DNA of 57,417 nucleotides from a virus (taxonomy: Duplodnaviria; Heunggongvirae; Uroviricota; Caudoviricetes). The translations under genes and the position numbers were made by a program. The stretch lies in IMG/VR virus record IMGVR_UViG_3300028454_000679, one strand, 5' to 3'. Under the pieces are notes generated by a model. That model did not search any database. It worked only from the letters and a program-made list of their open reading frames with translations, and was not told where the DNA came from. Shown in pieces: positions 1,341-50,211 of the stretch (its first letter is position 1; the number at the start of each line of letters is the position of its first letter).

Positions 1341-2209
1341 TTTAACCACACTCCTACTTGGTAGTTTTCATCGATTGTAGAGCCCTTTATAGAAATCTCT
1401 ACATGATTGTAATCCATCTCAAGTTTGTCATAAACATTGAAATAGCTTAGGGTGCCAGAATCTACAAAAGAAGCCCACACAACCTTACCCATAGTTGATA
1501 CGGTAACCTGCAGTCTCTCTGCGGTTGTGTTACGTAAAATCCACAGAGGATTCTGTACTGTAAAAGTGCCTGAAGGAACATTCAGCGATGTTCCATTGAG
1601 AACTCTAACAGTCTCTAATGCTAAAGACTTCTCTAATTCTGTTGTGTCAATATTAGTTGGTTTAGGTCTTCTCTTTTTATTCTTAGAGCTCTCCCTTGCT
1701 TCATTAGCCTCATCTGAAAATGATTCTCCTGCGACCGCAATACCCTCTGCCTGCTCTGCCACATCAGTGTTAGCACCACTTCCCCAGACCTTCTGCAGAG
1801 CCTTATGAAAAAAGGTTTCTACAATAGGCTGCTTTTCCTCTTGTACAACAACTGTATGTGCGGACTGCTTGGTAAATAAACCGAAGACAGAGAAGATAAT
1901 AAGACCGGCACCCACACCAACAAGCACAGGAGCTATTGGTAAGTACTTAGGTGTCTTTGCAGTGTTAGAAGCACTACACAACCCAACATACCCAACATCT
2001 GTCTTAACACATCCTGCGACAGGTAAACTGCTATGTGGGAGCAGTTTATAAAACTTCCCATTGAGTTCTAATGCAGCTTCATTGTCTTCTGCAAAGCGAG
2101 TACCTTCTACAAAGTAAACACACTGCGGACCAGGTTCCTCTACACACACTTTCTTTCCACCAAACCTTAGGGTGGTTTTAGACTCTGTCCTTGAATACAG
2201 AACTTGCAT
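1337..2209 (-). CDS. bitopic membrane protein, hypothetical
   Basis: Central TM (IAPVLVGVGAGLIIFSVFGLF). Start at 2209 chosen from the GGGAGGGG RBS; the ORF track start is 2251. Confidence 0.7.
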   Translation of the reverse strand: MQVLYSRTESKTTLRFGGKKVCVEEPGPQCVYFVEGTRFAEDNEAALELNGKFYKLLPHSSLPVAGCVKTDVGYVGLCSASNTAKTPKYLPIAPVLVGVGAGLIIFSVFGLFTKQSAHTVVVQEEKQPIVETFFHKALQKVWGSGANTDVAEQAEGIAVAGESFSDEANEARESSKNKKRRPKPTNIDTTELEKSLALETVRVLNGTSLNVPSGTFTVQNPLWILRNTTAERLQVTVSTMGKVVWASFVDSGTLSYFNVYDKLEMDYNHVEISIKGSTIDENYQVGVWLK

Positions 2210-2693
2210 GAACGCTAGCCCCCTCCCTTGAACTTCTGGAAGTTTGTACAAATTGGAAAGCTGCCTCTAAAATAGGGATACTACCAGAATACATTTCATA
2301 AAACTCATCAGGGTCTTTACCATAGTGCTCTAGCAAAGAAGAACAACTAGAGAATACATTGCCTTCAAAAGTAAACTCATCCAACTTCTCAAAGAAAGCC
2401 TTATTTTTCTCTTGAGCAACAATAAAGAATCCCCACTTGAGAAATTCCTTCTGATACTTAAAGAGGTTTTGTGAGTTGTCAGGTATACTCAGAGCCACAT
2501 CAAACATCCTATTATACTTACTATCCTTAGCATCTCTCAGTTGGGGTTCCCAACCCTTGCCAAATACAAAGACAAGTAAAGAATCTGAATTATAATCCCT
2601 GACTGCAACTGAACTATTGTAACTACCAAACAACTGACACGCCCATTTAGCGAAAATCATCAAGTCCTGTAAGTCTCTGTCGTAAACATTCAT
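2178..2693 (-). CDS. hypothetical protein carrying the C-terminal VHASSVF motif
   Basis: GGAGGT RBS before MNVYDRD; ends ...ASVHASSVFKDRV. Confidence 0.7.
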   Translation of the reverse strand: MNVYDRDLQDLMIFAKWACQLFGSYNSSVAVRDYNSDSLLVFVFGKGWEPQLRDAKDSKYNRMFDVALSIPDNSQNLFKYQKEFLKWGFFIVAQEKNKAFFEKLDEFTFEGNVFSSCSSLLEHYGKDPDEFYEMYSGSIPILEAAFQFVQTSRSSREGASVHASSVFKDRV

Positions 2694-3094
2694 TCGAACC
2701 TCCGTACAGTTGAAACTGCGCACACACTACCATACAGGTGAAAAATACCTCTGTAATAGGTGATCTCATACTCATTCATAGTTGTACTATGTTTTTTAAC
2801 TGAATCGTAATCAGACATCTTGTAACTTTCTCCATCTTGCAAATTATTATATGTGACAACCCCGTTTTCTTCTGTAACTGACTCTACCGGTTGCACAGAT
2901 AAAAGAACCTCTGTGGAATAATACATAGGCTCCATCTTCACAAAGACAACGAGTGCAAGTGCTACAATGCAGTCAACAGCAAAGCCAAACCAGCACAAAG
3001 TCGTTAATACTGACTTGCAAAAGATTAAAGACACAAGAAATACAATCAATACAAGAGTCAGTACAACACTTACAGCCACATTAAAAGAAATCAT
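2690..3094 (-). CDS. small membrane protein
   Basis: Two N-terminal TM helices; ATGA overlaps with both neighbours. Confidence 0.7.
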   Translation of the reverse strand: MISFNVAVSVVLTLVLIVFLVSLIFCKSVLTTLCWFGFAVDCIVALALVVFVKMEPMYYSTEVLLSVQPVESVTEENGVVTYNNLQDGESYKMSDYDSVKKHSTTMNEYEITYYRGIFHLYGSVCAVSTVRRFE

Positions 3095-3852
3095 TGAAAT
3101 GTTCCTGACTTCAAAATATTTGTGAACTTAGGACTAAAAGAAATAATAGCCGGGTATTTAAACCAATCATTGTTATGTACAGTATCAAGAACCTCAAACT
3201 GATTGGATGTGTCTTTGCGGCACAACTCCTTCACGCCATAATCTGACAACACTATAGTTGCTAAGCCTGAACGAGCACGTTTAGTGATAAGTTCGTTTAT
3301 TACAGGGTAACAATACTCATGTTGCGGTAGCTTTGTGACGGTCATAAAGCAAACCTCTGCCATAAGATAGCTATCATAATCAATCTGATTAAATAGTTTG
3401 TAAGTAGGTCTATCAGCACCTAGGACAAACAAACGTTTTACATCGTTAGTATCTAAAACCGGTGCGACTGTAAAACCAGCGTCTAATGCATGCTGAATGC
3501 ACGAATACATAAAAGTAGTCTTTGAGAATCCAACTGGTGCAGAAATAATGACAGACTTCTGTGGTATCTGTTTGCTAGAGAACACTCTGTGAACTTTCTC
3601 CAACTGTGAGCAATACCTCTCAAACATTTGATTATCCACAAGCTCTGGCTTAAACTGTTTTAATTTCTCAGCAGACCAAGCGATGCCTCGATACTGAGAA
3701 GGCACACCATACACACTAATTTTCTCTACAAAATCTTCTGTGGTTTCTCTCTGCTCAAAATTAAATGAGCCCCTGAGGTCAATACCACACTCGGGGCATA
3801 CTCTATCTCTGAAACCTTCACCACCACAGGTAAAACAATGCTTACTTTTCAT
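3091..3852 (-). CDS. DnaC/IstB-like ATPase with N-terminal Zn finger (putative helicase loader, degenerate)
   Basis: CFTC...CPEC Zn motif; VIISAPVGFSKT degenerate Walker A; INELITKR...TIVLS resembles the DnaC/IstB C-terminal motif. Confidence 0.55.
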   Translation of the reverse strand: MKSKHCFTCGGEGFRDRVCPECGIDLRGSFNFEQRETTEDFVEKISVYGVPSQYRGIAWSAEKLKQFKPELVDNQMFERYCSQLEKVHRVFSSKQIPQKSVIISAPVGFSKTTFMYSCIQHALDAGFTVAPVLDTNDVKRLFVLGADRPTYKLFNQIDYDSYLMAEVCFMTVTKLPQHEYCYPVINELITKRARSGLATIVLSDYGVKELCRKDTSNQFEVLDTVHNNDWFKYPAIISFSPKFTNILKSGTFQ

Positions 3853-4273
3853 GTTTGTAATTCTTAACCTCCGCTGGCTTATTTGCCTTGTTGCTGGATT
3901 TTCTTTTAAAGATTCTTTTAAAGATACTTGACTTTTCTTTTGTGGCTATTGGTATCTCAATAGCCTGATAAGCGCCAGTGGCAGCTGTCCATGATGGAAG
4001 CGACTCTTCACACCCATAAACCTGTGGGTCTGGAATAACTTTTTGTAAAGCAGCAACCATAGCCACATGCTCTGCTGACTTATTCATAGTGTCAGCTAAA
4101 TTCGTCCAGAAAATACTGTTATCTGTTGCTATACAAGCTGGCGGGTCTGTCATAAGATAAACATCAACATTCTTTCCTGTTTCTTGCTTTTTCTCCTGCA
4201 TACGTTTCCAGACATCCTCTGGATTATCAAATTCCTCATAGTCAAGCAATTCGCCATAAATCCTATATTTCAT
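3842..4273 (-). CDS. hypothetical protein
   Basis: 143 aa ORF with a basic tail containing KEKSSIF. Confidence 0.7.
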   Translation of the reverse strand: MKYRIYGELLDYEEFDNPEDVWKRMQEKKQETGKNVDVYLMTDPPACIATDNSIFWTNLADTMNKSAEHVAMVAALQKVIPDPQVYGCEESLPSWTAATGAYQAIEIPIATKEKSSIFKRIFKRKSSNKANKPAEVKNYKHEK

Positions 4274-4796: not shown

Positions 4797-4811
4797 ACTG
4801 CCTCCAACCTA

Positions 4812-4837
4812 GAAGAGGGAGACACGTCTCCCTCTTC
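4812..4837 (-). terminator. perfect hairpin after the Ig/Cys-repeat gene (terminator or RNA-stabilising stem)
   Basis: GAAGAGGGAGA-CACG-TCTCCCTCTTC, 11-12 bp stem; no clear U-tract. Confidence 0.45.
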
Positions 4838-4844
4838 CAAAATT

Positions 4845-6730: not shown

Positions 6731-6731
6731 A

Positions 6732-7982
6732 CTAATTCCTCGTAACTATATTACTATACTGTGATTTTACATTTACGTCGGACTCTGCTAAATTGGCTCC
6801 ATAAATTCTAACGTAAGCTATGGCATTTCCACTACCATCACCTCTAATACCGAAATGCTTCATGAACTTATTACCATCGCCGAAAATCTCAACAGAGTGG
6901 CAGGAAGCTGCATGCACAAAGTACTTGTACTGAGGCATACGTAAATTACTCATCTTGTATCGTACACCGTCCTGTGCTGTGGAAACTGAAGTAGCAGTCC
7001 AACCATCGTGCAATCCTCTGGCATTGCTATGACCTCTTCCAATTGCATCGCATACAACACAATGTATAATGGTGCCGTCGGTCAAGTAAAGGTCACACAG
7101 AACGCCCTCATGTGTCATGGTGTGATAATTGTAGGAATGGAATCCTAAATCCTCTACAAAGTCTGGGAGGTAACCAGCACCCAAAGCTATACCATAGAGT
7201 TTAGTACCGAAAGCTTCATAGACTGGTAATCCAGTCTCAGCATCAATGCCCTTGGGTGCAAGACTGTAACGGAGTTTCTTATTCTCTGTAAGAATCTTAC
7301 AACCTAAATGAGAGTCTGCGTAAGTACCATAGCTACATTTGTAAGAGCTATCATACCTGTATGCAGGCTTGATACTCTCAACACCAATAGCTATTCCACC
7401 TACATCAGAAACTTTTAGCTTGTACGGGACAGCGACATCATAGTAAACGAGGTCATCACCATCCTTATCAGTGTACGTAGACTCCGCCCCACTGTCGCAG
7501 TATGGGTAATCCATAGCTTGTCCATCGTTAGCAATAGAACTACTGATAGTTGACTCCTCTGTTCCTAAAGTTTGCAACTCATTCTCTATATCCTGCAACT
7601 TCTCCTGAAATGAATCCAAATTATCCTTATACTGCTTTAAGCTGACTTTCTTACGATGCTCCTTGTACTTCTTTAAAGCCTTTAGTTGCTCAGCATGTAG
7701 TTCCTTTAAAGCTTTCTTCCTAGCTTCACGCTCTTCTCTAGCTTGCTGTTTCTGTAAACGTTTCTCTTCAGCTTCCTGCTTTATATTAAACAGTTTCTGC
7801 TTTGCAATAGCCTGGTCATACTCGTAAGTAGCTGCTTCCTGTTTCAACCTGTCAATATTACTCTGTACACTTGAGTTCCCCTTTGAAGCTAAAACACTTG
7901 TAGGGGAACTCAGAGTAAGACTTAAGACTAGGACACTACTTAAAAACAGCTGACTTTTTGAGCAATGTGGTAACCTTAACAT
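6732..7982 (-). CDS. secreted coiled-coil protein whose C-terminal domain is paralogous to that of the neighbouring hydrolase
   Basis: Signal peptide, long K/E/Q coiled coil, then YYDVAVPYK...YGIALG...GVLCDLYLTDGTIIHC..DAIG..HSN shared with 8257..11457. Confidence 0.8.
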   Translation of the reverse strand: MLRLPHCSKSQLFLSSVLVLSLTLSSPTSVLASKGNSSVQSNIDRLKQEAATYEYDQAIAKQKLFNIKQEAEEKRLQKQQAREEREARKKALKELHAEQLKALKKYKEHRKKVSLKQYKDNLDSFQEKLQDIENELQTLGTEESTISSSIANDGQAMDYPYCDSGAESTYTDKDGDDLVYYDVAVPYKLKVSDVGGIAIGVESIKPAYRYDSSYKCSYGTYADSHLGCKILTENKKLRYSLAPKGIDAETGLPVYEAFGTKLYGIALGAGYLPDFVEDLGFHSYNYHTMTHEGVLCDLYLTDGTIIHCVVCDAIGRGHSNARGLHDGWTATSVSTAQDGVRYKMSNLRMPQYKYFVHAASCHSVEIFGDGNKFMKHFGIRGDGSGNAIAYVRIYGANLAESDVNVKSQYSNIVTRN

Positions 7983-11200: not shown

Positions 11201-11457
11201 AAAACAGTTTGAATACCATTAAAAATTCCAGACGCAGAGAAAAGGTCTAAATCACTAGCAGCCACCTTTTTACCACCTGCAAGTCGCTCCTGCATAAGTA
11301 AAAGGTACTCGCTACTAAAACATGAAAGCCCAATAACACAAAGAATAGTCGCTACAACTGTTACAAGAACAAGTTTCGCAAAAATAGACTTATCTTTCGG
11401 TGGACTTTCTGTCATGTCAAATACATGTGACTCTGTAACTCCTTTAAATTTATACAT
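8257..11457 (-). CDS. membrane-anchored multidomain peptidoglycan hydrolase (phage-tail-lysozyme-like + NlpC/P60 + degenerate SGNH + C-terminal DPBB/3D-like), VirB1-like
   Basis: N-terminal TM; ATAAMIGSAAYEG..GVGIYQF (Phage_lysozyme2-like); DCSGSIYAAY...LVAGDVL..GHVLMFLG (NlpC/P60 Cys/His); Ser-rich linkers. Confidence 0.8.
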   Translation of the reverse strand: MYKFKGVTESHVFDMTESPPKDKSIFAKLVLVTVVATILCVIGLSCFSSEYLLLMQERLAGGKKVAASDLDLFSASGIFNGIQTVFTSGMNGTAQTAGQSSNYSVGYGKLPEDYVLSFAGDHGKKFFTAQWNSAIDCGCTAEATAAMIGSAAYEGNIDSYSGAGVGIYQFVGGAISGYRSYCSSASHANHHKINGCCAEAACQTKYFISHPSNGYINWLEYKDTHLSVNFKSGYEFVRSGDASKAAITFPDKNVSVPKTITEFLKCDDIKMASLAFYVNKERAAAAAIYIEARGHYSSAASAYHGNTEKEKRKDLFWHYRSEGSFHNRCKAALAAYKKATKVAEKLAGSSIASNNSANATASLVSGWKYLDGSHGGFTPDKCCIDESTLSPERQKVIDRMFWIVWNSWYTQGVGDNGHMRSLDRDTNWNVIKRKIDAGKDVGTDCSGSIYAAYTSIGITVPSGTGLYPGEGKWINKKDLVAGDVLATHGKGHVLMFLGWANKSKTRIYAAQMHGCDDNYGSFKKGGNKPEGSVKEVDYPNDMRPWQILPPGTGIPSSSSSSSTSTVTQAVPNAGSVAPAANTNPLHDTTLIAGNQLVVSAYKSNNLKAKKTRGKRHVDGKYYEGCFFLAQDHTGYNYLKKNKHTIKRALQKGTTLVVLTGTDDTGRAPNIASLSNKFGAYGSVYVCTLPPVDSECRTVNNQNIEHFNTTIKSSAVSYKVLDLHSFCSSNDVVSEKGSSQYSLANAGKILKEIRTKATPYEHAAIASNGQSLNEALSQSDSASAIQQSTTNFSGNDGLPRSDIYGDCGIESSYVYASSGKDVPYYDVAVPYKVTCEDIGGVADDVETNTATYTYTAYGFKGGRKFKPPYCANRVGCKFTQEKASINTDVIKFSAPKSTEGGIGVFAACGTKQYAIALGKWCYPRNMVRLGFHGFGSISSTGVLCDLIMTDGSIIHCTTGDAIGYAHSNQVGQFDGWTAASKASAQDHTRYHTTAMKFPAYQYMFHAAACHVIEFFGNPSAFEHQYGIKENGTGNCVAFIRMYKANLAHDQGKVKAKDKFKNITTKVQ

Positions 11458-11544: not shown

Positions 11545-12387
11545 TTAAGTAAAGACACTGCTCTTACTTACTGTTGGTTGTGCCAGTAAAGTACTCACCC
11601 TGGGAAAGTGAATCAAGACTATTGCTCGTATTCTTGAAGCAATAGTATCTCCATACACCGCTCTAATACGCTCAATTGCTGGAGAAATATCAGGCGTTTT
11701 CAGTTCTACACCAGTACCATAAAGTGTATGGCATGCTTCTACCTGTTTCTCAAAAGATGTAGCAAATGGTCTTGCTTTCACGCCGTTTAACTCCTTGCGG
11801 ACATTACCGTCTTCCGAATATTTGGTTCGTAGATTTGACAGAAATCCCATTCCACAATCAAAGATAGGTGCAGGACGAAACTTGCCTTGTTTCTTATTGT
11901 ATAATAGAGCAATATTATTAAAGTGTCTATCCTCATTCAGAGTAAGGTAATCCACATCAAGTAATTTTGACAAGTACACACCAAAATCCTTAATGCCAGT
12001 ATTCTGTTCAACAACACTAACAAACGATTGAATCTTATCAGTAGTTGCCAACTGTTGCCATGCATTCAAACTTATTTGGTTATAGTAATCCCTGTCAACA
12101 CTTTTCAACAGCCGTGCAATAGTGATAACAAACTCATCAGGTGCTTTAAAGTCTTTGGAAACACAACCGGTTACCATCTTCCCATTCTGCTCCATTGTGA
12201 CCAAATCATACTTAACAAATTCTGATTCATTTAAATCTGTATATTGCATGACATAAGACGCCAAATACTCTGCGGCACCTTCGTATCCTAAGAAGCCAGC
12301 CTTGTACCAGTAACCATCACATTCATACTTTGCCTGATTACCAAGGGCACTGGGAGCTATTCCACCAGAATTGCTAACACTAAACAT
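11545..12387 (-). CDS. HipA-family Ser/Thr kinase (HipT-like, lacking the N-subdomain)
   Basis: GNQAK, WYK, EYLAS, NEDRHFNNIA, APIFDCG motifs; GGAGG RBS; ends VSKSSVFT. Confidence 0.85.
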   Translation of the reverse strand: MFSVSNSGGIAPSALGNQAKYECDGYWYKAGFLGYEGAAEYLASYVMQYTDLNESEFVKYDLVTMEQNGKMVTGCVSKDFKAPDEFVITIARLLKSVDRDYYNQISLNAWQQLATTDKIQSFVSVVEQNTGIKDFGVYLSKLLDVDYLTLNEDRHFNNIALLYNKKQGKFRPAPIFDCGMGFLSNLRTKYSEDGNVRKELNGVKARPFATSFEKQVEACHTLYGTGVELKTPDISPAIERIRAVYGDTIASRIRAIVLIHFPRVSTLLAQPTVSKSSVFT

Positions 12388-12748: not shown

Positions 12749-13909
12749 CTACGCAAATACAGTTGACTTTTCCACACTTGAATCACTTTTAAAATCCACA
12801 GTGTATGTTTTATCCTGCATCAATTCCTGTAAGTTTCTCTCAGTTATCTGTCTTATAAATTCCATCCTCTCTTCAGGTAAATTATACACCGAATGTATTG
12901 GAAGGTAAATTGTTCTCGGTATTCTACTCCTAATACTATCTGTTAGGAATGCTTGCCCTATCTTTGCAAAATCCCCACCTAACTTATGCCCAAAATGACC
13001 GTCACTAGTATACTTACTAAAATCCTCTAAGTCATCCTGCATTGCATAAGTGAGCATAGAGATATTAAAGTCGAATAATGGTGCAAAATCAACTATCTCA
13101 TAGCTGTCGCTGTCTACGAGAAATCCAAAGTTGCCTAAATGTCTATCTTGATTAAAGACAATGGAATCTAAAACAATCATTTCCTGAAATTTTTCTAGCA
13201 CACCATACTCAGCACACAACTGTGGTAAGTTCTCCCAACTATACAAAATATTCCTATCAGTATAGCGATGCATCGGAACATAAGCCAAATCTTTCGACGT
13301 AAACATTTTGCATTTAGTACAAATATGTCCATGCTTATTTACAAGATCATACCTTACAACATCCTGCTTAGTAAACTGCCTGGCAATAAAGCTGGAAATA
13401 TACTCAGAGTAGGGTTCAAGTCCAACATTGGCAGCCCCAGATTGACCTGTCTTGTAAAGGAAAATCCCATCAGATTCTCTTTTCCAAAATTTTGGAAAGG
13501 AGCCCTCTGCAGTAAATTCAGGACTTGTTGTGGCTGAAAGCTGTAATCCATGCAACCCACCTTCGAAAGCAGTTTTCTCCACTATATCAGAAAACTCATT
13601 ATCATATAGGTTTATACAGTCCCAGGATAACTCGGATTCAGCTTTCTTCACCCACAGTGTGTCATTAAGCGACAGTGCATGAGTTACCTCAATAAATCCC
13701 TCAATGGTGTCAATGCCCCATTCCTTAGTCCAGTTAGTCAAATGCTCCTTATGTTTTGCATAATTACGACTTGCTAACCATGTATTTAGATCAAAGGATG
13801 GAATTCTTATATCATTTAGCATTTTATCGCACACAGCAATAGTACTAACAATACCCTTTTCCATATGAAAAGATAATAATGGTACGTTCTTATTCATTAA
13901 ATAATACAT
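12749..13909 (-). CDS. HipA-family kinase with fused N-terminal domain
   Basis: YLMNKN N-domain; EGSFPKFW..LYK, EPYSEY, NQDRHLGNFG, APLFDFN; ends VEKSTVFA. Confidence 0.88.
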   Translation of the reverse strand: MYYLMNKNVPLLSFHMEKGIVSTIAVCDKMLNDIRIPSFDLNTWLASRNYAKHKEHLTNWTKEWGIDTIEGFIEVTHALSLNDTLWVKKAESELSWDCINLYDNEFSDIVEKTAFEGGLHGLQLSATTSPEFTAEGSFPKFWKRESDGIFLYKTGQSGAANVGLEPYSEYISSFIARQFTKQDVVRYDLVNKHGHICTKCKMFTSKDLAYVPMHRYTDRNILYSWENLPQLCAEYGVLEKFQEMIVLDSIVFNQDRHLGNFGFLVDSDSYEIVDFAPLFDFNISMLTYAMQDDLEDFSKYTSDGHFGHKLGGDFAKIGQAFLTDSIRSRIPRTIYLPIHSVYNLPEERMEFIRQITERNLQELMQDKTYTVDFKSDSSVEKSTVFA

Positions 13910-13952: not shown

Positions 13953-14936
13953 TTAATTGCTCTTAGACACAAAAATGTTAGAAGTGTGTACAGGATTACT
14001 GGTTGCTAATAATGTAAAATCTTCATTTATAACTTCTTGACGCCTTTGCAACACCTGGTAAGCTCTATCCAGAATAAGTTCCTTTCTGTAGTGCAACATT
14101 TGCTTATAAAACGTTTTTCTTAAATCTGAAATCAAAGGTGTATTGTCAATAATAGAATTTACTTTACTCTCATCGATACGTGGATACAACTCTAAAAATG
14201 CTCTTGTACAATTAGCATCCATACCTGAAGATAACATCTCAAAGTACCCATACTTATTCAACTGCTTAAAATTATTATCCTTATTCAGTGCAGATTTTGG
14301 GAAGTCATTAACTCGCTTTAGCACCTCTTCCTTATTACTAAGGATATCTGTAAATTTTGTTTCAGACAATCCTGGGTAGAGACTACTGCCACAATCATAA
14401 ATCGGAGATGTGGTGAGCTCGCCTGTTAGGAGATTTCTAATAAATCCTAAATTACCACTATGTCTGTCAAAATTCCCAATATATGCATCTAGGACAAAAT
14501 TATAAAAGTAGTGCATAATGGCTTCAGATGCAATGGAAGACAGGTCACTTTGATTGATTGTTCCATACAATTGATCATATGAAGGAATTCTCCCCAGTTC
14601 CTGTTTACGATATACTGTCCTCATGAACCAATTGAGTTCTTGTAGTTTATGATTTGGCTCGACAAAATCTAAGCAAGCTACGGCGATTTCACCATCTACA
14701 ACAGCTAACTTTGTCTTATGCACACTCAGACCCATACTTTCAGCTATATGGCTACTGACGTATTCTGAAATAGCTGAATTGCTGGTAGATGCAGCCAGTG
14801 AATTTTCTTCAACCTTGGTATCTGCAAACTTTATCATGTAGTAGTCATCACCAAGAATATAAGACTCTTTGGAATCTGACCCTCCGTAATCCCGGTAAGC
14901 TCTCTTAGCATTATCTATATCAAATAAAGTGTCCAT
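13953..14936 (-). CDS. HipA/CtkA-like kinase
   Basis: YGGSDSK..YMIKF, SEYVSS, GNFDRHSGNLG, SPIYDCGSSL; GGAGGTG RBS before MDTLF; ends VHTSNIFVSKSN. Confidence 0.88.
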   Translation of the reverse strand: MDTLFDIDNAKRAYRDYGGSDSKESYILGDDYYMIKFADTKVEENSLAASTSNSAISEYVSSHIAESMGLSVHKTKLAVVDGEIAVACLDFVEPNHKLQELNWFMRTVYRKQELGRIPSYDQLYGTINQSDLSSIASEAIMHYFYNFVLDAYIGNFDRHSGNLGFIRNLLTGELTTSPIYDCGSSLYPGLSETKFTDILSNKEEVLKRVNDFPKSALNKDNNFKQLNKYGYFEMLSSGMDANCTRAFLELYPRIDESKVNSIIDNTPLISDLRKTFYKQMLHYRKELILDRAYQVLQRRQEVINEDFTLLATSNPVHTSNIFVSKSN

Positions 14937-35870: not shown

Positions 35871-36250
35871 CTTCGTAAGTCATCATCCTCCTTTACTCTC
35901 TCAACAACATAAGTCGGAAATGAATTTGTGCTGATAAGACGCTCCATACTAGGAATGTACTCTGCTGAGATAGCAAAGGTAATCTCAACACACCTATCAT
36001 TAAATTTCTTCAAAGTCACATTATTGAGAATCTCTTGTTGTACGCTTGCATTAACTAAGTCCCTGACAAGCATATCCTTTGTTGCCTCTTCCTTGCGCTT
36101 AGTCTCTTCATACTCAATAATTCTTTGCCTGTAAGAATCACTGGCATGTATTCTACTCACAATAGCAGTATAGAGTTTATCGAAAGGCTTAAGCTTATTG
36201 AGGTCAACAGGATAGTCGACATTAATCTCTTTTCTTATTAAAGCTTTCAT
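35819..36250 (-). CDS. hypothetical protein
   Basis: 143 aa; ATGA-coupled to dnaX. Confidence 0.7.
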   Translation of the reverse strand: MKALIRKEINVDYPVDLNKLKPFDKLYTAIVSRIHASDSYRQRIIEYEETKRKEEATKDMLVRDLVNASVQQEILNNVTLKKFNDRCVEITFAISAEYIPSMERLISTNSFPTYVVERVKEDDDLRRCMKDLPALYTVKPITI

Positions 36251-37332
36251 ACATTAAACACAGCGCTCTTCTTAACCGCGCCATACCTTTCTAAAATAAA
36301 ATGTAATTTGACTAACTTAAACTTGAGTGACTCCTCTGAAATATCCAGAGGTATAGAATCTACAAATTGAAGTAAATCTAATATAGGGACGTCAGACAAA
36401 AGGTCCTTCAAAGTGTCAACATGCTGCTTCAAAAGAACCTCAGACTTCAAGCCAGCCTCTACAAATGTGTACTCAATAAGTAAATCCTTGAATGCGTTAA
36501 TAAAACTGTAAGTATCACTTTTGCTCAAGACATTGTCTATTACAAATCTATAAGAACTTATATCCTGTAAACATGCTGAACTTAGTAAATCTATAATATC
36601 GTACACTTCACATGGATTAACATAGGTCTGAACTTCATCATCTGACATACCTGCATTCTTAAAGAATCTCAAACTTTTCTCCATATCTCTAGGAATTCCA
36701 GCAGACCTTTGGATAATACTATTCATAGTAATACTGTTGTAATGAATACCATATCGTTGTGCGATAGCAATAGCACACTTATACATATCCATAGCATTCA
36801 GTCGTTTAAAGTCGAAGATAATTGCTCTGCTTCTTAACTCCTCTAGAATATCCCTCTTACGCGTAGTGCACATAATGATAAAGACACCCTCTGGTAGACG
36901 GTCGATACGCTCAAGCATAGAAGTAAAAGCATTGTTCACATTCTTTAAAGTATGTGCTTCTTCAAGAATAAAGACATGAGTGTTAGACTTCTTTGTTTCA
37001 AACACAAGCTTAAGCATATTGTTAACATCCTCGTATGTCTTTATCTCAGCACAGTTCAGCACAGATACTGTCTGTGAGTGACCCTGAGTAGGTAATAGTA
37101 AATGATTGTTACTACATGATGAGCAATTACACTGTGTAACATCACCTCTAAAAACAACATCGTTATTCTCACAGGTAAGTGCTATAGCTGCTGCATGAGC
37201 CGCTGAAGTTTTACCAACTCCCATCACTCCTGCAAAAATTGAAAATTTCGGGAACCCACCGTTCCTTATTGCCTTTAAAATGACCTCAATGGTCATAGAA
37301 TTGCCAAAAATCTCAGAAAAACTCTCAATCAT
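36247..37332 (-). CDS. dnaX: DNA polymerase III gamma/tau-like clamp loader ATPase
   Basis: AGVMGVGKTS, ALTC...CNCSSC Zn module, ILEEAH, LRSRA (SRC motif), G.PRD; ends VKKSAVFNV. Confidence 0.88.
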   Translation of the reverse strand: MIESFSEIFGNSMTIEVILKAIRNGGFPKFSIFAGVMGVGKTSAAHAAAIALTCENNDVVFRGDVTQCNCSSCSNNHLLLPTQGHSQTVSVLNCAEIKTYEDVNNMLKLVFETKKSNTHVFILEEAHTLKNVNNAFTSMLERIDRLPEGVFIIMCTTRKRDILEELRSRAIIFDFKRLNAMDMYKCAIAIAQRYGIHYNSITMNSIIQRSAGIPRDMEKSLRFFKNAGMSDDEVQTYVNPCEVYDIIDLLSSACLQDISSYRFVIDNVLSKSDTYSFINAFKDLLIEYTFVEAGLKSEVLLKQHVDTLKDLLSDVPILDLLQFVDSIPLDISEESLKFKLVKLHFILERYGAVKKSAVFNV

Positions 37333-40244: not shown

Positions 40245-41258
40245 TTAAAACTCCCTTCCAAATAAATTTATATCCTGTACAGTGTAAGCATCAGGATTAA
40301 TATTTCTATCAACTGCATAGGTACCCGAAGCAACACTTAAACCTGCCTGCTTAATAGCCTCCTTTTGTGCATCCGTCAACATCTTTGGTACAAGGTTTAG
40401 TACCCTAAGAGTCTTTTTATCATTTATCATAGACAAATAGGTCGCAAAGGCATCAAGATCCACATCATAAGTAGGTGTAAACAGACTGATACTTTCTGGT
40501 TTCTTTGCAGGTACAACCAGCTCCTTATTTCTCAATACATCCTCTACAGGTAGGGACTCATCCCAAGCAAGCAAAGTTTCAACAAGCAAATCAGATTCCA
40601 TAGCTGTTGATTCATAATTGTAGATACCATTCTGCATTAAAACATCACAGAAATCCCTGTACACTTTGTAAGGTTGTTTTACGCTTATAGCGGGTATCTT
40701 ATCGGAAGAACACCCACAAATAATCTTGTAGAGAGATATTGTATTGTAGAGTATATCCTTCCCCGGGACGACACCAGTTCTAAAGTTATTGTAGTTAACA
40801 AACTTACCCTGCGAACTGCATGGACACAACTCGCCATTAGGCCAGATGCTGTGTGCTATATCAGCATCATTAGTAATAATGCTGTAAAATGTGAAATCAT
40901 CATGAAATTCCTGAACATACCAGTCAATAACATCATCCGCCTCAAACCCATTATGCTTCGCACACAGTATCCCACACCCTGGTAGGTAATTGTATGCAAA
41001 CTCTAACTGTGCATAAACTGCTGGTGCTTTTGGTCTACCAGACTTGTACTCTGAATTTCCACTGCACTTCTTGGAGTGACTATCAAAGACTAATACAAAT
41101 GGTTGTTTACAGTTAATAGCCTCTGCAACATACCGGTTAAGGTAAATAAGACCACCAACAGGCATATTATAGTAAGTTAAGTCGCGATAGTACGGTGAAT
41201 TCATTCCAGTGTGTACAAGGGCAGATACGTCAATTAACCTCATTTTAAATCCAAGCAT
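40245..41258 (-). CDS. 5'-3' exonuclease / flap endonuclease (PolI N-domain-like)
   Basis: LIDVS, LVFD, YKSGR, GFEADDVI, ITNDAD, CG.SSDKIP. Confidence 0.88.
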   Translation of the reverse strand: MLGFKMRLIDVSALVHTGMNSPYYRDLTYYNMPVGGLIYLNRYVAEAINCKQPFVLVFDSHSKKCSGNSEYKSGRPKAPAVYAQLEFAYNYLPGCGILCAKHNGFEADDVIDWYVQEFHDDFTFYSIITNDADIAHSIWPNGELCPCSSQGKFVNYNNFRTGVVPGKDILYNTISLYKIICGCSSDKIPAISVKQPYKVYRDFCDVLMQNGIYNYESTAMESDLLVETLLAWDESLPVEDVLRNKELVVPAKKPESISLFTPTYDVDLDAFATYLSMINDKKTLRVLNLVPKMLTDAQKEAIKQAGLSVASGTYAVDRNINPDAYTVQDINLFGREF

Positions 41259-42256: not shown

Positions 42257-42257
42257 T

Positions 42258-46397: not shown

Positions 46398-47938
46398 AGT
46401 ACATTTACCTCAATAGCGATTTTATTATACTCACGTAAGTAAGGTGTAACTGTAATAGTAGAGCCGAACGGTATTCTGTAATCCTTAAAAGTGACATAAG
46501 AAACAAAACCCAGAGTATCATGGAATTCATAACGATAGCCGTATTTGGTATAAGCCTCCTTAAAGTCGCCCACCAACTTGCAACGTAAACGGATAAACCC
46601 TGTTGCATTATGAGCAAACTCATTGTAGGTTGCAATGGCTCTCATATCTCTAGCATCAAAATGATCAGTATCAACGATTACATCACTGTAGACTTCTGTT
46701 GCATAACTTAACTCTGCGGAAATCTGTACAAGACTATCAATAAACTGTGCAAGGCTACCAATACCCAACTCGAATCCATGTGCGGAAGGATGTCCCCCTG
46801 CAGTACAGTAGTTGGATGTAATGCTAAGAGCATCAATATTAGTGTAACACCGGACACTACCTTTGTAAGCATTGTGAGCACGACAGATAACAATACACGT
46901 CCTCTTGTATCGCTCTGCAAGCTTGTTGGCAATAAGACCAGTATAGTTATATAATTTCTTCTCCTGAATAACATCCTCACTTGCGTAATCAGTAAGATTA
47001 CAGAAAACAAGGGATTCATACTCAGCCACAGAAACCACATCCGTGATAAGTTCAATAAAAGGTTTGGACTCCTCGTAAGTTGTCTTTATCTCCTTAAACA
47101 TAGCATGTGGGTCTGAAACATCTCGCTCAAGAAACAGTGCGTTTATAGCCCAAAAAGATTCTGCTCTAAAACAAGCATTAAGTTTAGGAGCAATATTAAA
47201 CTGCACGGTTCTTGCTGTAAGGTTACCACCCTCTTTTAAAAAGACAGAAATACATGGTGGGTATTCAATGCACGAAATCTGACTAACCTGTTTCCAGATA
47301 AATCGATTGAGTTTAGAGTTCATATGCATACAGTCAGCATAAAGGCTAACGATAGCATAACAGTAAATGTCGGAAAGCTGACTTACATGCAGACCAGCTA
47401 TCTCTGCAAGCTTTGATGCAACACAGAGGCACAAGCCACCTGCACTAAGGCATTCGTAGTCCTCGCAGGTAGCTTTCTCCAAAGTCGTGTTTAACAAGTA
47501 AACATTCTCAGGTAAGTCGGAAGTACGTAAGCTGATAGCATGATGGTCAATAACAAACACACTGCCACACGCATGAGCAATACGAGTGAGATTTACAAGG
47601 TCCTCAACTGAAGACCCAGTATCAGTCACAATAACAACATCATACTTACGCTGAATACACTCTAAAGCAAACAACTTATCCAACTTATGTGTACGGGATT
47701 GATACTTATAGCTAGAGACAATTCCATCACAAAGCCTATGAGTAATATCAGTCATAATACAGTTGCACATAAGACCATCCACATCATAGTCACCATAAAT
47801 ACCGATGGTTTCTGCATTAAGTAAATCAGCGTACAATCTTACAGAAAAGTTCTCAAGATTCAACGTGTACGGAATGCTGTCTAACTCAAATAGCGTAAGG
47901 TCTTCCTTTTTGCAATACTTTAAAATGTCACTATACAT
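46394..47938 (-). CDS. recJ: RecJ-like DHH ssDNA exonuclease
   Basis: IYGDYDVDG, IVTDTG, VIDHH, LSAGG, IAPKLNA, GSVR, AGGH..A.G. Confidence 0.9.
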   Translation of the reverse strand: MYSDILKYCKKEDLTLFELDSIPYTLNLENFSVRLYADLLNAETIGIYGDYDVDGLMCNCIMTDITHRLCDGIVSSYKYQSRTHKLDKLFALECIQRKYDVVIVTDTGSSVEDLVNLTRIAHACGSVFVIDHHAISLRTSDLPENVYLLNTTLEKATCEDYECLSAGGLCLCVASKLAEIAGLHVSQLSDIYCYAIVSLYADCMHMNSKLNRFIWKQVSQISCIEYPPCISVFLKEGGNLTARTVQFNIAPKLNACFRAESFWAINALFLERDVSDPHAMFKEIKTTYEESKPFIELITDVVSVAEYESLVFCNLTDYASEDVIQEKKLYNYTGLIANKLAERYKRTCIVICRAHNAYKGSVRCYTNIDALSITSNYCTAGGHPSAHGFELGIGSLAQFIDSLVQISAELSYATEVYSDVIVDTDHFDARDMRAIATYNEFAHNATGFIRLRCKLVGDFKEAYTKYGYRYEFHDTLGFVSYVTFKDYRIPFGSTITVTPYLREYNKIAIEVNVL

Positions 47939-47940
47939 AG

Positions 47941-50211
47941 TTACCCCTTCTTAATTCTGTTAAATACTGAGTCCAAATAGGACTGTTTTACAAATGTAAC
48001 ATTAGACATTTCACTCTCTTCCAAGGTTCCTTCCTGCTCTGCTTCCTCTTCTGGAGCTACCACAACCTCTTCAGGGATTGCTTCAAGTTTTGTTACATTT
48101 AAATTGATATGTGTAGACTCCTGCTCATCAGGGAAATCCAAGTAATCTGAGAAAATATTGGAAGCTTCCAAACTTTGCTTAGGCTCTTCTGCAAGTATAT
48201 CACGTACAAAAATACTCGGAACTTTCTCTGAGTAGTAAATTCGCAGAGTGTTCTTTGACCGAGTTAGAGCAACATACCACAGGCGTACCTCAGCCTCCTT
48301 CAGTTGTTTCTTAGTTTCATCGTCATAGGCTGATGCATCAATACTGTCAAAGTTTGGGAATACACCATCATCCATGTCCATAATGATGACATGATTATAC
48401 TCAAGACCTTTCAATGAATGCATGGTGGATAATGCAAGACCAATATGAGAGTCATTATTCACAGTAATAGTATTCTGCTTTTTTGAAATCTCCTTGTAGA
48501 ACTCAGTGTATTTCATTGTGGTCTTAAAGAAGTCCGAAATTCTAGCCTCCATATAAGCATCCACACCAGTAGGATTCTGGCGTATCTTGTAATCCCAGTA
48601 GTACTTCTTCAGTAGAGGCATAACCTGAGTAAAGATAGCACCTACAGAAAGTGTCTGAAAATTCTTAGATAGCTTTGTAAGTAAATCCATAATCTCAGAG
48701 AAACCAGAAATACCTCTTAAATTGCCATAGTCATACTCTGCAAAGTGTTTTGTATGTGAAAGGTTCGAGAAGCTATGAGTTGATGGATTAAATCCAAAGA
48801 CATCATAGACCTGCTTACGTTTCACCGGCAACACCTTGTAAAGATTGATAGCCAACTCTGGCTCATAAGGTGACTCCAGAATGTTATAAATGTCAATAAG
48901 ATGACCAAACAATTCATACTGAAATGCACTGAATCCTGAGTTAATATGAAAATCTATATCATTCAACATGAGTTCCCAGGAAACTGCATAAGAGATATAA
49001 TTATTTCTATAACAGATTGTGCAGCTCTCTCTAGGGTCTAAGGTTTTGAGATAGTTAATCATATTACCTATCTCACCCTGTAAAGACTTATATGGAACAA
49101 GTTCAATCTCACCATCAGGCTTACACCCTTTTATATCCTTAACAAAACGATAATCATTCTTAGAGACTGCTTTCACTGCTAAATCCAGAACGTTCTGTGG
49201 GCACCGTCTATTGGTACCAACAGAGTAAATATGAGCATCTTTAAAGTTCTCTTTGAAATTAAATAAGTCCTTGATATTAGCACCTCTGAAAGTGTAAATA
49301 TTCTGGTCATCATCGCCAATAGCTACAAAAGGCGTTCCGTTAGAAAGAAGAACTTTGAGGATGTTCCACATAATAGGAGTAAAGTCCTGTACCTCATCTG
49401 CGATAACATACTCAAAGCTTGCCTGTATGCGCTCAAGAACATCTTTGTCCTCACTGATAAGCTTGTAAAACTTAATAAGCATGTCACAGAAATCATACCG
49501 TCTTTGAACACGTTTAGAATTGTCATAAGTTCTGAAGATAGCCTTCACAACATCGAGTGGATACTCCACATCAAGAAGTTTCGGATTACCTGCTAGCTGG
49601 TCTGGCTCTAAAAGTGACTCTTTCATATAGGTATACAGCGAGCAGAGGTCTGAAGCCTTACTCTCCTGAACACCCTTTCCAAGCCCCTGCATAGTAGCAG
49701 ACTCCGCAGTTGCCATCATCATCTGAGAGGCTGATGCTTCTAAAATATGGTAATTCACCATATTCAGCTTGTAAGTATATTCTTTACGCCATGCATCACA
49801 AAAAGAGTGTAGGGTGCATGTGTAAAGTGTTTCACTAAGGTTAAGACCGGAAACAGCAGCATTTATCTTTCTTACCATTTGAGAGTGCTTGTGTTTCAAG
49901 TCATCAACATTGTGTCTGTTGTAAACAAGACACAGAATACTGGTTCCTTGAATCTTACCTTTTCCAGAACGTGCTGGTCTGTAAATCTTCTGCTGTATAG
50001 CTTTAATCTGAGCCCAGGTGGTTTTACCTCCACCAGCTGTTGCGATAACTAACTCGCTAGGTGGTTCACACGCTGATGCTAATTTAATATCATCCTCCAT
50101 GTCAAAGCCTAAGATTCTATAAAGATTCTTAACACAAGCAACTCTCTGCTCATATGATGGAATATTATCATAATATTCTTGACACGGTACTTTTTCGATA
50201 TCAAAATTCAT
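47941..50211 (-). CDS. UvrD/PcrA/Rep superfamily 1 helicase with acidic C-terminal tail
   Basis: ATAGGGKTT, ADEVQD, IGDDDQNIYTFRGA, STMHSLKGLEY, EVRLWYVALTRSK. Confidence 0.93.
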   Translation of the reverse strand: MNFDIEKVPCQEYYDNIPSYEQRVACVKNLYRILGFDMEDDIKLASACEPPSELVIATAGGGKTTWAQIKAIQQKIYRPARSGKGKIQGTSILCLVYNRHNVDDLKHKHSQMVRKINAAVSGLNLSETLYTCTLHSFCDAWRKEYTYKLNMVNYHILEASASQMMMATAESATMQGLGKGVQESKASDLCSLYTYMKESLLEPDQLAGNPKLLDVEYPLDVVKAIFRTYDNSKRVQRRYDFCDMLIKFYKLISEDKDVLERIQASFEYVIADEVQDFTPIMWNILKVLLSNGTPFVAIGDDDQNIYTFRGANIKDLFNFKENFKDAHIYSVGTNRRCPQNVLDLAVKAVSKNDYRFVKDIKGCKPDGEIELVPYKSLQGEIGNMINYLKTLDPRESCTICYRNNYISYAVSWELMLNDIDFHINSGFSAFQYELFGHLIDIYNILESPYEPELAINLYKVLPVKRKQVYDVFGFNPSTHSFSNLSHTKHFAEYDYGNLRGISGFSEIMDLLTKLSKNFQTLSVGAIFTQVMPLLKKYYWDYKIRQNPTGVDAYMEARISDFFKTTMKYTEFYKEISKKQNTITVNNDSHIGLALSTMHSLKGLEYNHVIIMDMDDGVFPNFDSIDASAYDDETKKQLKEAEVRLWYVALTRSKNTLRIYYSEKVPSIFVRDILAEEPKQSLEASNIFSDYLDFPDEQESTHINLNVTKLEAIPEEVVVAPEEEAEQEGTLEESEMSNVTFVKQSYLDSVFNRIKKG

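What the first reader, a model, noticed from the sequence alone, without database searches (positions are those of the whole stretch)
2193..48171. Shared short linear motif [V/L]-x-x-S-x-[V/I]-F appended to many unrelated proteins: a candidate element-specific tagging/docking system
Seen directly within a few residues of the C-terminus: VHASSVF (hypothetical, 2193-2213), LKKSAVF (HRDC, 7942-7962), VSKSSVF (kinase, 11551-11571), VEKSTVF (kinase, 12755-12775), VHTSNIF (kinase, 13971-13991) and VKKSAVF (DnaX, 36256-36276). It also occurs as LEASNIF at the start of the acidic UvrD tail (48151-48171) and as VTESHVF in the N-terminal tail before the TM of the cell-wall hydrolase (11419-11439). Weaker terminal variants: ILKSGTF (DnaC-like), KEKSSIF (3842 ORF), VKVSGQF (15089 ORF), QMGSGVF/FTSANLF (SSB candidate), VQDINLF (5'-3' exonuclease). 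The codons differ (Ser as TCA, AGC, TCT, TCC or AGT), so conservation is at protein level. The carriers belong to unrelated folds and the motif lies outside the folded domains. Inference: one element-encoded receptor recognises it. Options are (a) a translocation signal for the VirB4/PilB transfer machine that delivers kinases and replication proteins to recipients, (b) a non-canonical clamp- or SSB-binding motif analogous to QL[S/D]LF, (c) a Ser phospho-acceptor or docking site for the HipA kinases, or (d) a degron. Caveat: two instances (2193, 7942) are in gene overlaps.
Basis: partly seen in the sequence, partly recalled or inferred. Interest (0 to 1): 0.9.

Follow-up and report, generated by a model that had tools for sequence, protein, structure and literature searches.

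The report
Shared docking tag on element proteins
An uncultivated giant element or phage of at least 234 kb puts the same seven-residue peptide (hydrophobic-x-x-Ser-x-Val/Ile-Phe) on the floppy ends of some 25 unrelated proteins, including its RNA polymerase, DNA polymerase, ligase, helicase, clamp loader, a DnaK chaperone and three kinases. The peptide most likely docks them all on one partner, probably the element's own DNA sliding clamp, but binding has not been shown.

Summary
All eight named instances sit at the stated coordinates, with differing Ser, Val and Phe codons.

I walked the parent 234-kb metagenome contig out to 138 kb (149 ORFs).
- The strict motif [VLI]xxSx[VI]F occurs 28 times against 5.2 expected.
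- Ten of these lie within 6 residues of a C-terminus (P about 4e-10).
- A blind pattern search of all tails returns this motif as its top hit (family-wise 2/300).

New carriers lie outside the window:
- a fused beta/beta' RNA polymerase with three tandem copies in a Pro/Ala-rich tail;
- PolA, in a C-terminal extension;
- a LigA-like ligase;
- a DnaK with a 28-residue N-terminal extension;
- several small proteins that start MK(K)STVF.

119 homologues of kinase 2 lack the tail. AlphaFold places the motif in the only disordered segment at that kinase's C-terminus. An 84%-identical clamp-loader orthologue keeps the motif positions.

The element encodes a very divergent three-domain beta-type sliding clamp (Foldseek E 1e-12). 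This is the only recognised peptide-binding hub fold found, and it is my favoured receptor. Binding is untested.

The motif fails the canonical QL[SD]LF definition.

The scan has noted similar lineage-private tags in other jumbo phages.

The parts
2193..2213 (-). Tag VHASSVF, 4 aa before the stop of a 171/181-aa protein with no family match
7942..7962 (-). Tag LKKSAVF, 1 aa before the stop of a 100-aa HRDC-domain protein. The domain covers residues 6-68 and the tag is at 93-99.
11551..11571 (-). Tag VSKSSVF, 1 aa before the stop of HipA_C-like kinase 1 (289 aa)
12755..12775 (-). Tag VEKSTVF at residues 379-385 of HipA_C-like kinase 2 (386 aa). Residues 379-386 are the only C-terminal stretch with pLDDT under 50. 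119 homologues lack the tag.
13971..13991 (-). Tag VHTSNIF, 5 aa before the stop of HipA_C kinase 3 (336 aa)
36256..36276 (-). Tag VKKSAVF, 2 aa before the stop of the clamp-loader-type AAA+ protein (DNA_pol3_delta2). The 84% orthologue P0002 ends VQKSTVFN.
48151..48171 (-). [quoted passage not shown]
11419..11439 (-). Tag VTESHVF at residues 7-13 of the 1066-aa NlpC/P60 protein
3097..3117 (-). Variant ILKSGTF, 1 aa before the stop of a 253-aa protein. The same S-x-T-F variant ends a 220-aa protein outside the window.
3920..3940 (-). Variant KEKSSIF, 25 aa before the stop of a 143-aa protein, in a basic tail
55373..55405 (-).
40260..40274 (-). Variant DINLF, 4 aa before the stop of the 5'-3' exonuclease
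51951..52937 (-). Proposed receptor: a divergent three-domain beta-type sliding clamp (328 aa). It has no terminal tag.
   Evidence: AF2 pLDDT 77. The Foldseek top 50 are all bacterial beta clamps, E 6e-13 and weaker, probability 1.0. Atlas structural neighbours carry DNA_pol3_beta.
36247..37332 (-). Clamp-loader-type AAA+ gene. It would load the clamp and is itself tagged.

Best explanation
The peptide is a genuine short linear docking motif. Its consensus is hydrophobic-x-[K/A/T/Q]-Ser-[small or Asn]-Val/Ile-Phe, often followed by Ser/Thr/Lys and Asp. It sits in disordered N- or C-terminal tails and linkers of about 25 to 30 of the roughly 150 proteins examined in this element of at least 234 kb.

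All copies are most likely read by one element-encoded receptor. My preferred receptor is the element's own highly divergent beta-type sliding clamp (window 51951-52937), loaded by the tagged clamp-loader-type AAA+ protein.

On this model the Val/Ile-Phe pair plugs into the hydrophobic cleft of the clamp, as the Leu-Phe of bacterial clamp-binding motifs does. The clamp on the element's DNA then acts as a private toolbelt. It would gather the PolA polymerase, ligase, 5'-3' exonuclease, UvrD helicase and HRDC protein. It would also gather the element's fused RNA polymerase, through three tags, which gives avidity and resembles clamp-activated late transcription in T4. Less expectedly, it would recruit a DnaK chaperone and three HipA-like kinases.

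The non-canonical spelling (Ser, no Gln) would keep this network apart from the host clamp.

Shown here: the motif, its enrichment, its position outside folds, its absence from kinase homologues, and the clamp fold.

Inferred, not shown: that one receptor reads it and that this receptor is the clamp.
For: - Enrichment and terminal bias.
- Protein-level conservation with varied codons.
- Position outside folds:
  - Kinase 2 residues 379-386 have pLDDT under 50, while the model averages 88.
  - The DnaK Hsp70 domain starts at residue 29 and the tag is at 6-12.
  - The PolA polymerase domain ends near residue 1000 and the tag is at 1159.
  - The RNA polymerase tail has three tags separated by Pro/Ala/Val-rich linkers.
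- 119 homologues of kinase 2, at 44-54% identity, lack the tag.
- The 84% clamp-loader orthologue keeps V, K, S, V and F while neighbouring tail residues changed.
- The use of N-terminal, C-terminal, internal-loop and tandem positions matches the documented placement of beta-clamp-binding motifs (PMC11139829).
- Annotated carriers are mostly classical clamp clients:
  - PolA; LigA-like ligase (NCBIfam dnlj, E 3.7e-10); 5'-3' exonuclease; UvrD; the clamp-loader-type protein.
  - RNA polymerase, with the T4 precedent (PMC7892883, PMC2988020).
- The element has its own beta-type clamp.
- No other known peptide-reader domain (FHA, BRCT, TPR, PDZ, SH3) appears among the Pfam hits. These are the precomputed hits listed for the called genes, plus my own Pfam runs on most ORFs of the stretch without a gene table.
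Against: - No binding evidence of any kind exists.
- The motif does not fit the canonical clamp-binding consensus Q-aliphatic-x-[L/M]-[F/L]. It has no Gln, it has an invariant Ser, and Val/Ile replaces Leu/Met.
- Kinases, DnaK, a membrane-anchored cell-wall hydrolase and a DUF2201 protein are not known clamp clients.
- Family A polymerases do not generally depend on clamps.
- A distant syntenic relative with a homologous clamp (23% identity) shows no S-x-V-F tags in the 21 kb seen. The tag is therefore not tied to that clamp family as a whole, although a respelled tag is possible.
- The element also encodes an FtsK/EssC-like ATPase. ATPases of that family read C-terminal tails in type VII secretion.
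Confidence: 0.5

Rival explanations
1. The tag is read by a different, still unrecognised hub. This could be a scaffold of a replication/transcription factory or compartment, the 464-aa or 550-aa proteins of unknown fold, or a host protein. The tag would then be a general localisation address and not a clamp hook.
For: - Many carriers have no obvious business on a clamp: three kinases, DnaK, the hydrolase N-tail, DUF2201 and about ten proteins of unknown function.
- Most proteins of the element have no family match at all, so an unknown reader is easy to hide.
- The motif fails the canonical clamp consensus.
Against: - No candidate is identified.
- The one recognisable hub fold in the element is the clamp.
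- The annotated carriers are enriched for clamp clients.
Confidence: 0.2
2. The tag is an export, transfer or packaging signal. A secretion-type ATPase of the element recognises it and delivers the tagged proteins (RNA polymerase, replication starters, chaperone, kinases) into a recipient cell or a particle together with the DNA. Candidate readers are the FtsK/EssC-like 697-aa protein, the GspE/PilB-like ATPase and the VirB11/TadA-like 665-aa protein.
For: - The element encodes an FtsK_SpoIIIE/EssC-like ATPase, a T2SSE ATPase and a VirB11/TadA-like ATPase.
- EccC-type ATPases read the last residues of EsxB as a secretion signal (PMC6954902).
- An element with its own RNA polymerase might need to bring that enzyme along, as phages N4 and phiKZ do (my own knowledge).
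- Most strong copies are C-terminal.
Against: - N-terminal copies right after Met, internal linker copies and three tandem copies on one protein are not how known T4SS or T7SS signals are laid out.
- No relaxase, portal, capsid or terminase appeared among the family hits on record for the 138 kb examined.
- The proposed VirB4 has no Pfam hit and only a TraC match at E 0.003, far below cut-off.
- A clamp loader, ligase and UvrD are odd cargo.
Confidence: 0.12
3. The invariant Ser is a phospho-acceptor, or the motif is a docking site, for the three HipA-like kinases. These would thereby regulate the tagged proteins and each other.
For: - Ser is the most conserved position.
- Three different HipA_C-like kinases sit together, and each carries the tag itself.
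- Phosphorylation next to a PIP box controls PCNA binding of p21 (my own knowledge; topic of PMC12366268, seen but not read).
Against: - Characterised HipA-family kinases recognise folded aminoacyl-tRNA synthetases, not linear tags (my own knowledge).
- The flanking hydrophobic Val/Ile-Phe and the upstream Val look like a pocket-binding anchor.
- 119 homologues of kinase 2 work without such tails.
- This reading does not exclude a clamp reader. It could be an added layer.
Confidence: 0.08
4. The motif is a degron for a host or element protease.
For: Terminal, exposed and hydrophobic-ending tags resemble ClpXP/ClpAP recognition tags in general layout (my own knowledge).
Against: - Tandem and internal copies, and tagging of the core replication and transcription enzymes, are hard to square with targeted destruction.
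- The only proteases among the family hits on record are an S24/S26-type peptidase and the DUF2201 metallopeptidase-like protein.
Confidence: 0.04
5. Chance or compositional artefact of an AT-rich genome.
For: - About five or six of the 28 strict matches lie inside predicted folds or membrane helices and look like chance hits. This equals the expected 5.2.
- A simple exact-residue enumeration alone did not survive Bonferroni correction.
Against: - There is a five-fold excess overall.
- The terminal excess is more than 100-fold over shuffled proteins (7 against 0.08 in the first 105 kb).
- It is the top hit of a blind class-pattern search, family-wise 2/300.
Confidence: 0.02

Closest known systems
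Bacterial beta-clamp-binding motifs (CBM; QL[S/D]LF, more generally Q-aliphatic-x-[L/M]-[F/L] and Q-aliphatic-x-[L/M]-x-[F/L]) on Pol II/III/IV/V, Hda, MutS/MutL, ligase and the delta subunit
   Same: - A 5-7 residue motif ending in aliphatic-Phe.
- Placed in disordered C-termini, N-termini (Hda) or loops of many unrelated DNA enzymes.
- A three-domain beta-type clamp is present.
- A clamp-loader subunit is itself a client. The delta subunit's AMSLF also lacks Gln (PMC11139829).
   Different: - No Gln at position 1.
- An invariant Ser three residues before Phe.
- Val/Ile instead of Leu/Met.
- An extra upstream hydrophobic residue.
- The clamp is only about 10% identical to solved clamps.
- Clients include RNA polymerase, kinases and DnaK.
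- Binding is untested.
Phage T4/RB69 gp45 clamp and its client tails (gp43 polymerase, ligase, gp33 and gp55 of late transcription)
   Same: - A mobile-element-encoded clamp is used as a hub for both replication and transcription proteins through short terminal peptides.
- The transcription machinery is tagged (PMC7892883, PMC2988020, PMC6212786).
   Different: - gp45 is a trimeric two-domain clamp, while here the clamp is a beta-type three-domain protein.
- In T4 the tags are on small RNAP-associated factors, while here three copies sit on the catalytic beta/beta' fusion itself.
- The sequence is different.
PCNA PIP-box / APIM client network of eukaryotes and archaea
   Same: One clamp recruits dozens of clients, including regulators and kinase-linked proteins. 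Multivalency and flanking residues tune the binding.
   Different: Different clamp type and different motif (Qxx[ILM]xx[FY][FY]). There is no evidence of common descent.
Type VII secretion C-terminal signal of EsxB, read by the FtsK/SpoIIIE-family ATPase EccC
   Same: - A short unstructured C-terminal tail is read by a pocket on an FtsK-family ATPase.
- The element has an EssC/FtsK-like ATPase (PMC6954902).
   Different: - T7SS substrates are small helical hairpins that also carry a YxxxD/E motif.
- Their signals are strictly C-terminal.
- Here N-terminal, internal and tandem copies occur on very large enzymes.
Lineage-private docking tags noted by this scan in other jumbo phages (AI notes e1-5525299, e1-5496725, e1-5666260, e1-5496617 and others)
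   Same: - Tags sit on the tails of RNA polymerase (several copies), DNA polymerase, helicases, ligase and small proteins.
   Different: - Those are unchecked AI notes on other genomes with other spellings.
- Here the clamp is of the beta type.
- The clients also include HipA-like kinases, DnaK and a cell-wall hydrolase.

Membership tests
Canonical bacterial beta-clamp-binding motif (CBM) | Sequence fits Q-aliphatic-x-[L/M]-[F/L] or Q-aliphatic-x-[L/M]-x-[F/L] (PMC11139829) | tested here: not met
   None of the 22 or so non-fold instances has Gln at position 1. Position 4 is Val/Ile, and Ser is invariant three residues before Phe. Only the terminal aliphatic-Phe is shared.
Canonical bacterial beta-clamp-binding motif (CBM) | Lies in a disordered terminus or exposed loop of the client | tested here: met
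   - Kinase 2 tail has pLDDT under 50.
- The DnaK N-terminal extension lies before the Hsp70 domain.
- The RNA polymerase tail has low-complexity linkers.
- The PolA tag lies beyond the polymerase domain.
Canonical bacterial beta-clamp-binding motif (CBM) | Shared by several replication and repair enzymes of the same genome | tested here: met
   PolA, LigA-like ligase, UvrD, clamp-loader-type AAA+ protein, HRDC protein and 5'-3' exonuclease (as a variant).
Canonical bacterial beta-clamp-binding motif (CBM) | Binds the hydrophobic cleft between domains II and III of a beta clamp | not testable with these tools
   Needs a binding assay or a reliable complex model. Nothing obtained here bears on it.
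Beta-type sliding clamp (DnaN fold), for the proposed receptor at 51951-52937 | Three repeated beta-alpha-beta clamp domains in one chain of about 330-380 aa | tested here: met
   - AF2 model pLDDT 77, pTM 0.56.
- The Foldseek top 50 are all DnaN clamps, E 6e-13 and weaker, probability 1.0, TM 0.45-0.55.
- Atlas neighbours carry PF00712/02767/02768.
- There is no Pfam or PHROG sequence match.
Beta-type sliding clamp (DnaN fold), for the proposed receptor at 51951-52937 | Forms a head-to-tail dimeric ring around DNA | not tested
   Only a monomer was modelled.
T4SS / T7SS translocation signal | Signal confined to the extreme C-terminus of substrates | tested here: not met
   Copies follow the start Met directly (204-aa and 73-aa proteins), lie at residues 6-13 (DnaK, hydrolase), occur in internal linkers, and occur in triplicate on one protein.
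T4SS / T7SS translocation signal | A complete secretion or conjugation machine in the same element | tested here: inconclusive
   - FtsK/EssC-like, GspE-like and VirB11/TadA-like ATPases and two NlpC/P60 hydrolases are present.
- The VirB4 assignment rests on a TraC hit at E 0.003.
- No relaxase was seen among the family hits on record in 138 kb.
- About 96 kb of the contig was not examined.
HipA-family kinase substrate site | Ser phosphorylated by the kinase | not testable with these tools
   Requires phosphoproteomics or an in vitro kinase assay.

The most novel reading that the evidence does not exclude
The tag is a private address code read by the element's own beta-type clamp. It tethers the replisome to the element's DNA. 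It also tethers the element's RNA polymerase (through three tags, giving replication-coupled transcription as in T4), a DnaK chaperone and three HipA-like kinases. The invariant Ser serves as a phospho-switch: the clamp-docked kinases use it to release or exchange clients. This would be a bacterial-world analogue of PIP-box regulation on PCNA.
Probability: 0.1. Interest if true: 0.85.

Novelty: new variant of a known kind. Interest (0 to 1): 0.62.

Why it matters
If the reading is right, a giant mobile element runs a self-contained protein-interaction network. One seven-residue plug and one divergent clamp would organise replication, repair, transcription, a chaperone and kinases on its own DNA, insulated from the host's clamp network by a different spelling.

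That would have three consequences:
- It would extend clamp 'toolbelt' biology beyond T4 and the host beta clamp.
- It would give about ten proteins of unknown function a first functional handle, since they act wherever the tag is read.
- It would offer an orthogonal peptide-receptor pair for engineering.

The same habit has been noted by this scan in other jumbo phages with other spellings. Terminal-tag analysis may therefore be a general way to find hidden hubs in uncultivated giant elements.

Tried and rejected
1. Complex prediction of the clamp (alignment A1) with residues 66-100 of the HRDC protein returned 'no answer' (score 0.00, controls not run). This is neither support nor evidence against binding.
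2. No whole genome is held for the window, and the parent record is not searchable by handle. I walked the contig with all 12 encoding-contig look-ups. This covered 138 of 234 kb, so about 96 kb remains unseen.
3. megablast of 20 kb against the phage and plasmid collections found no match.
4. Searches for related loci all found nothing:
   - the clamp loader and the GspE-like ATPase in IMG/VR;
   - the RNA polymerase in JGI metagenomes and in GTDB genomes.
   The clamp alignment was too divergent to build search patterns.
5. A homologue search with the RNA polymerase C-terminal 687 aa among longer proteins found only the protein itself. Conservation of the triple tag could therefore not be tested.
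6. The clamp has only 7 homologues in 1.8 billion representative proteins.
   - The 33% relative sits on a 4.6-kb scaffold with no visible carrier tails.
   - The 23% syntenic relative (L017) shows no S-x-V-F tags in 21 kb. Its UvrD has GADAFE at the spot that matches LEASNIF, and KIDMFE further down its tail, which may be a respelled tag.
7. A DNA-level explanation (ribosome-binding site, promoter or terminator overlapping gene ends) is rejected. Codons differ at every conserved residue, and the motif also occurs at N-termini and inside long tails.
8. The 267-aa gene after PolA was checked as a possible second clamp. The Atlas model is poor (pLDDT 0.45) and gives no clamp match, so this is uninformative.
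10. Exact-residue pattern enumeration alone (KS.VF, P 8e-5 among about 10,000 patterns) was not significant after correction. The residue-class version with an empirical family-wise null was significant.

Full report
**Context**

All genes of the window lie on the minus strand. GC is about 39%.

The window is the reverse complement of positions 106193-163609 of a 234,325-bp metagenome contig, ena:ERZ27247021:k141_88331. No whole genome is held, and the phage and plasmid collections hold nothing similar.

I walked the contig with the look-up of encoding contigs. The pieces merged into 138,162 bp without a single conflict, and this stretch holds 149 plus-strand ORFs and 46,129 residues.

The element carries its own:
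- fused beta/beta' RNA polymerase of 2459 aa;
- GreA-like and sigma region 4-like proteins;
- family A DNA polymerase of 1288 aa;
- LigA-like ligase;
- DnaB, primase parts, UvrD, RecJ-type DHH, Mre11/Rad50-like proteins and a 5'-3' exonuclease;
- clamp-loader-type AAA+ protein;
- DnaK;
- penicillin-binding protein;
- two NlpC/P60 hydrolases;
- three secretion-type ATPases.

No capsid, portal, terminase or relaxase family appeared among the family hits on record for the part I saw. Whether it is a jumbo phage or a giant plasmid stays open.

**The observation**

At each conserved residue the codons differ: five Ser codons, four Val codons and both Phe codons. The conservation is therefore in the protein, not in a DNA signal such as a ribosome-binding site.

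In the window, 6 of 12 strict matches to [VLI]xxSx[VI]F end within 5 residues of a stop. Terminal positions make up only about 2-3% of all positions.

**Extension and statistics**

Over the 138 kb:
- There are 28 strict matches against 5.2 expected from composition (Poisson P 2e-12).
- Ten lie within 6 residues of a C-terminus (binomial P 4e-10).

Residue-shuffled proteins in the first 105 kb gave 3.9 matches in total and 0.08 C-terminal ones, against 20 and 7 observed.

This serves as an independent test set.

I also ran a blind search over all four-position residue-class patterns in the last 12 residues of the 149 ORFs.
- It returns h..S.hF as the single best pattern, with 10 tails against 1.38 expected.
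- Only 2 of 300 control sets of random internal 12-mers reached as small a best P.
- A cruder exact-residue enumeration did not survive correction.

About six of the 28 matches lie inside predicted folds or membrane helices. Examples are the kinase catalytic region and a strand of the clamp itself. These are as many as chance predicts. The remaining 22 or so sit in tails or low-complexity linkers.

**New carriers**

- The fused RNA polymerase ends in a Pro/Ala/Val-rich tail with three copies: IDISNIF twice, then IGASNIF 3 residues from the stop. They lie about 50 residues apart.
- PolA has VQKSAIF at residue 1159. This is in an extension beyond the polymerase domain, which ends near residue 1000 when aligned to Klenow fragment.
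- The LigA-like ligase has VQKSSVF at residue 75 and ends in a variant.
- A bona fide Hsp70/DnaK (Pfam E 1e-77) has a 28-residue N-terminal extension with VSKSSVF at residues 6-12.
- Proteins of 204 and 73 aa begin MKKSTVF and MKSTVF.
- Proteins of 192, 247 and 122 aa end in the tag.
- Further linker copies sit in a DUF2201 protein and in proteins of 706, 416, 278 and 564 aa.
- Variants with Thr or Leu before Phe recur at other termini.

**Is the tag an appendage?**

- Kinase 2 has over 1000 homologues, many from Lachnospiraceae and other Clostridia. Of the 119 best, at 44-54% identity, none has the tag; one has an unrelated S-x-I-F.
- With a 63-sequence alignment, AlphaFold models kinase 2 at mean pLDDT 88. 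The only low-confidence C-terminal stretch is residues 379-386, which is exactly the tag.
- An 84%-identical orthologue of the clamp-loader protein from another sample ends VQKSTVFN. It keeps V, K, S, V and F, while the residues around them changed and one was deleted.

**Who reads it?**

The gene at 51951-52937 has no sequence-family match and only 7 homologues in 1.8 billion representative proteins. Its AlphaFold model (pLDDT 77) nevertheless matches bacterial beta clamps throughout the Foldseek top 50 (E 6e-13 and weaker, probability 1.0). The ESM Atlas neighbours agree.

Beta clamps are the textbook bacterial hub for short terminal or loop peptides ending in aliphatic-Phe. Those peptides sit at C-termini, at the N-terminus of Hda and in internal loops. 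[quoted passage not shown] In T4 the clamp also recruits the transcription factors gp33 and gp55 (PMC7892883, PMC2988020).

The annotated carriers here are largely the classical clients plus the RNA polymerase. No other known peptide-reader domain appears among the Pfam hits on record for the called genes or in my own Pfam runs.

This makes the clamp the best candidate, but it is an inference. The motif fails the canonical consensus. Kinases, DnaK and a membrane hydrolase are unexpected clients. A distant syntenic relative with a homologous clamp does not show the same tag in the 21 kb available.

The one complex prediction allowed gave no answer. It counts neither way.

**Rivals**

- An unknown hub or a localisation address is the main rival.
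- A transfer or packaging signal is conceivable. The element has an FtsK/EssC-like ATPase, and EccC reads the C-terminal residues of EsxB (PMC6954902). However, N-terminal, internal and tandem copies do not fit known secretion signals, and the evidence for a T4SS is thin.
- A phospho-acceptor role for the invariant Ser cannot be tested here. It could coexist with docking.
- A degron is unlikely.
- Chance is effectively excluded.

**Relation to earlier notes of this scan**

The scan has recorded similar lineage-private tags in several other jumbo phages. They sit on RNA polymerase tails, DNA polymerases, helicases and ligases, and a hidden clamp is the suspected reader. Those are unchecked AI notes. 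I used them as a lead and not as evidence.

This case differs in three ways: the clamp is of the three-domain beta type, the RNA polymerase is a beta/beta' fusion, and the clients include kinases, a chaperone and a cell-wall hydrolase.

**Verdict**

The interpretation as a shared docking peptide is well supported. The receptor is not established. I put the clamp at about even odds.

This is a new variant of a known kind of system. It is of moderate to high interest and is directly testable with peptides and one purified protein.

Noticed in passing
L015:10001-17380 (outside the window, record 64782-72161): A single 2459-aa protein fuses RNA polymerase beta (Rpb2 domains) and beta' (Rpb1 domains). 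No homologue of its last 687 residues other than the protein itself was found among longer proteins.
   Followed up: partly
window 52665-52685 (-): The clamp itself contains LQISNIF. This is nearly identical to the RNA polymerase tag IDISNIF, but it lies in a confidently predicted beta-strand (residues 84-91). It may be chance or a pseudo-ligand; this is unresolved.
   Followed up: no
L005:18143-19864: The element encodes a full Hsp70/DnaK (Pfam E 1e-77) with a 28-residue N-terminal extension. PHROG 22485 (function unknown) matches it at E 4e-71.
   Followed up: partly
L015:4624-6969: A 781-aa class A penicillin-binding protein (transglycosylase plus transpeptidase) with an acidic Ser/Thr/Glu/Asp tail is encoded by the element. 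A YdjM-family protein lies nearby.
   Followed up: no
window 18370-20349 (-): The ORF that the first-stage notes call VirB4 has no Pfam or PDB sequence match and only a TraC hit at E 0.003, against a cut-off of 567 bits. The T4SS reading of this region is weakly founded.
   Followed up: partly
L002:2785-4878 and L014:17900-19897: An FtsK/SpoIIIE-type ATPase is most similar to the T7SS EccC/EssC ATPase domains (E 2.5e-17). A 665-aa protein has a weak VirB11/TadA-like ATPase region.
   Followed up: partly
L017 (Logan ERR10114100 contig of 156,654 bp): A distant relative has the same gene order as window 45-57 kb: NERD, Toprim, a 464-aa protein, Rad50-N-like, Mre11-like, a small protein, clamp, two unknowns, UvrD, DHH, an unknown and a GspE-like ATPase. 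Its GC is 35%. It is a second member of this element type.
   Followed up: partly
L012:8588-9925: In an unrelated contig found through a 27%-identical clamp-loader homologue, a 445-aa protein ends in QLDLFDV. This is a canonical beta-clamp-binding pentapeptide two residues from the stop. A neighbouring 380-aa protein ends in TSLFN.
   Followed up: no
window 12749-13909 (-): Kinase 2 belongs to a large family with more than 1000 members at E below 1e-5, about 370-420 aa long, found in Lachnospiraceae, Eubacterium and Clostridium. Many members have no Pfam domain on record (the best hit for kinase 2, HipA_C, is below cut-off). The AlphaFold model is confident (pLDDT 88).
   Followed up: partly
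L015:8808-10001: The ligase is only 397 aa and matches just the adenylation/OB part of NAD-dependent LigA. It lacks the zinc finger, HhH and BRCT parts.
   Followed up: no
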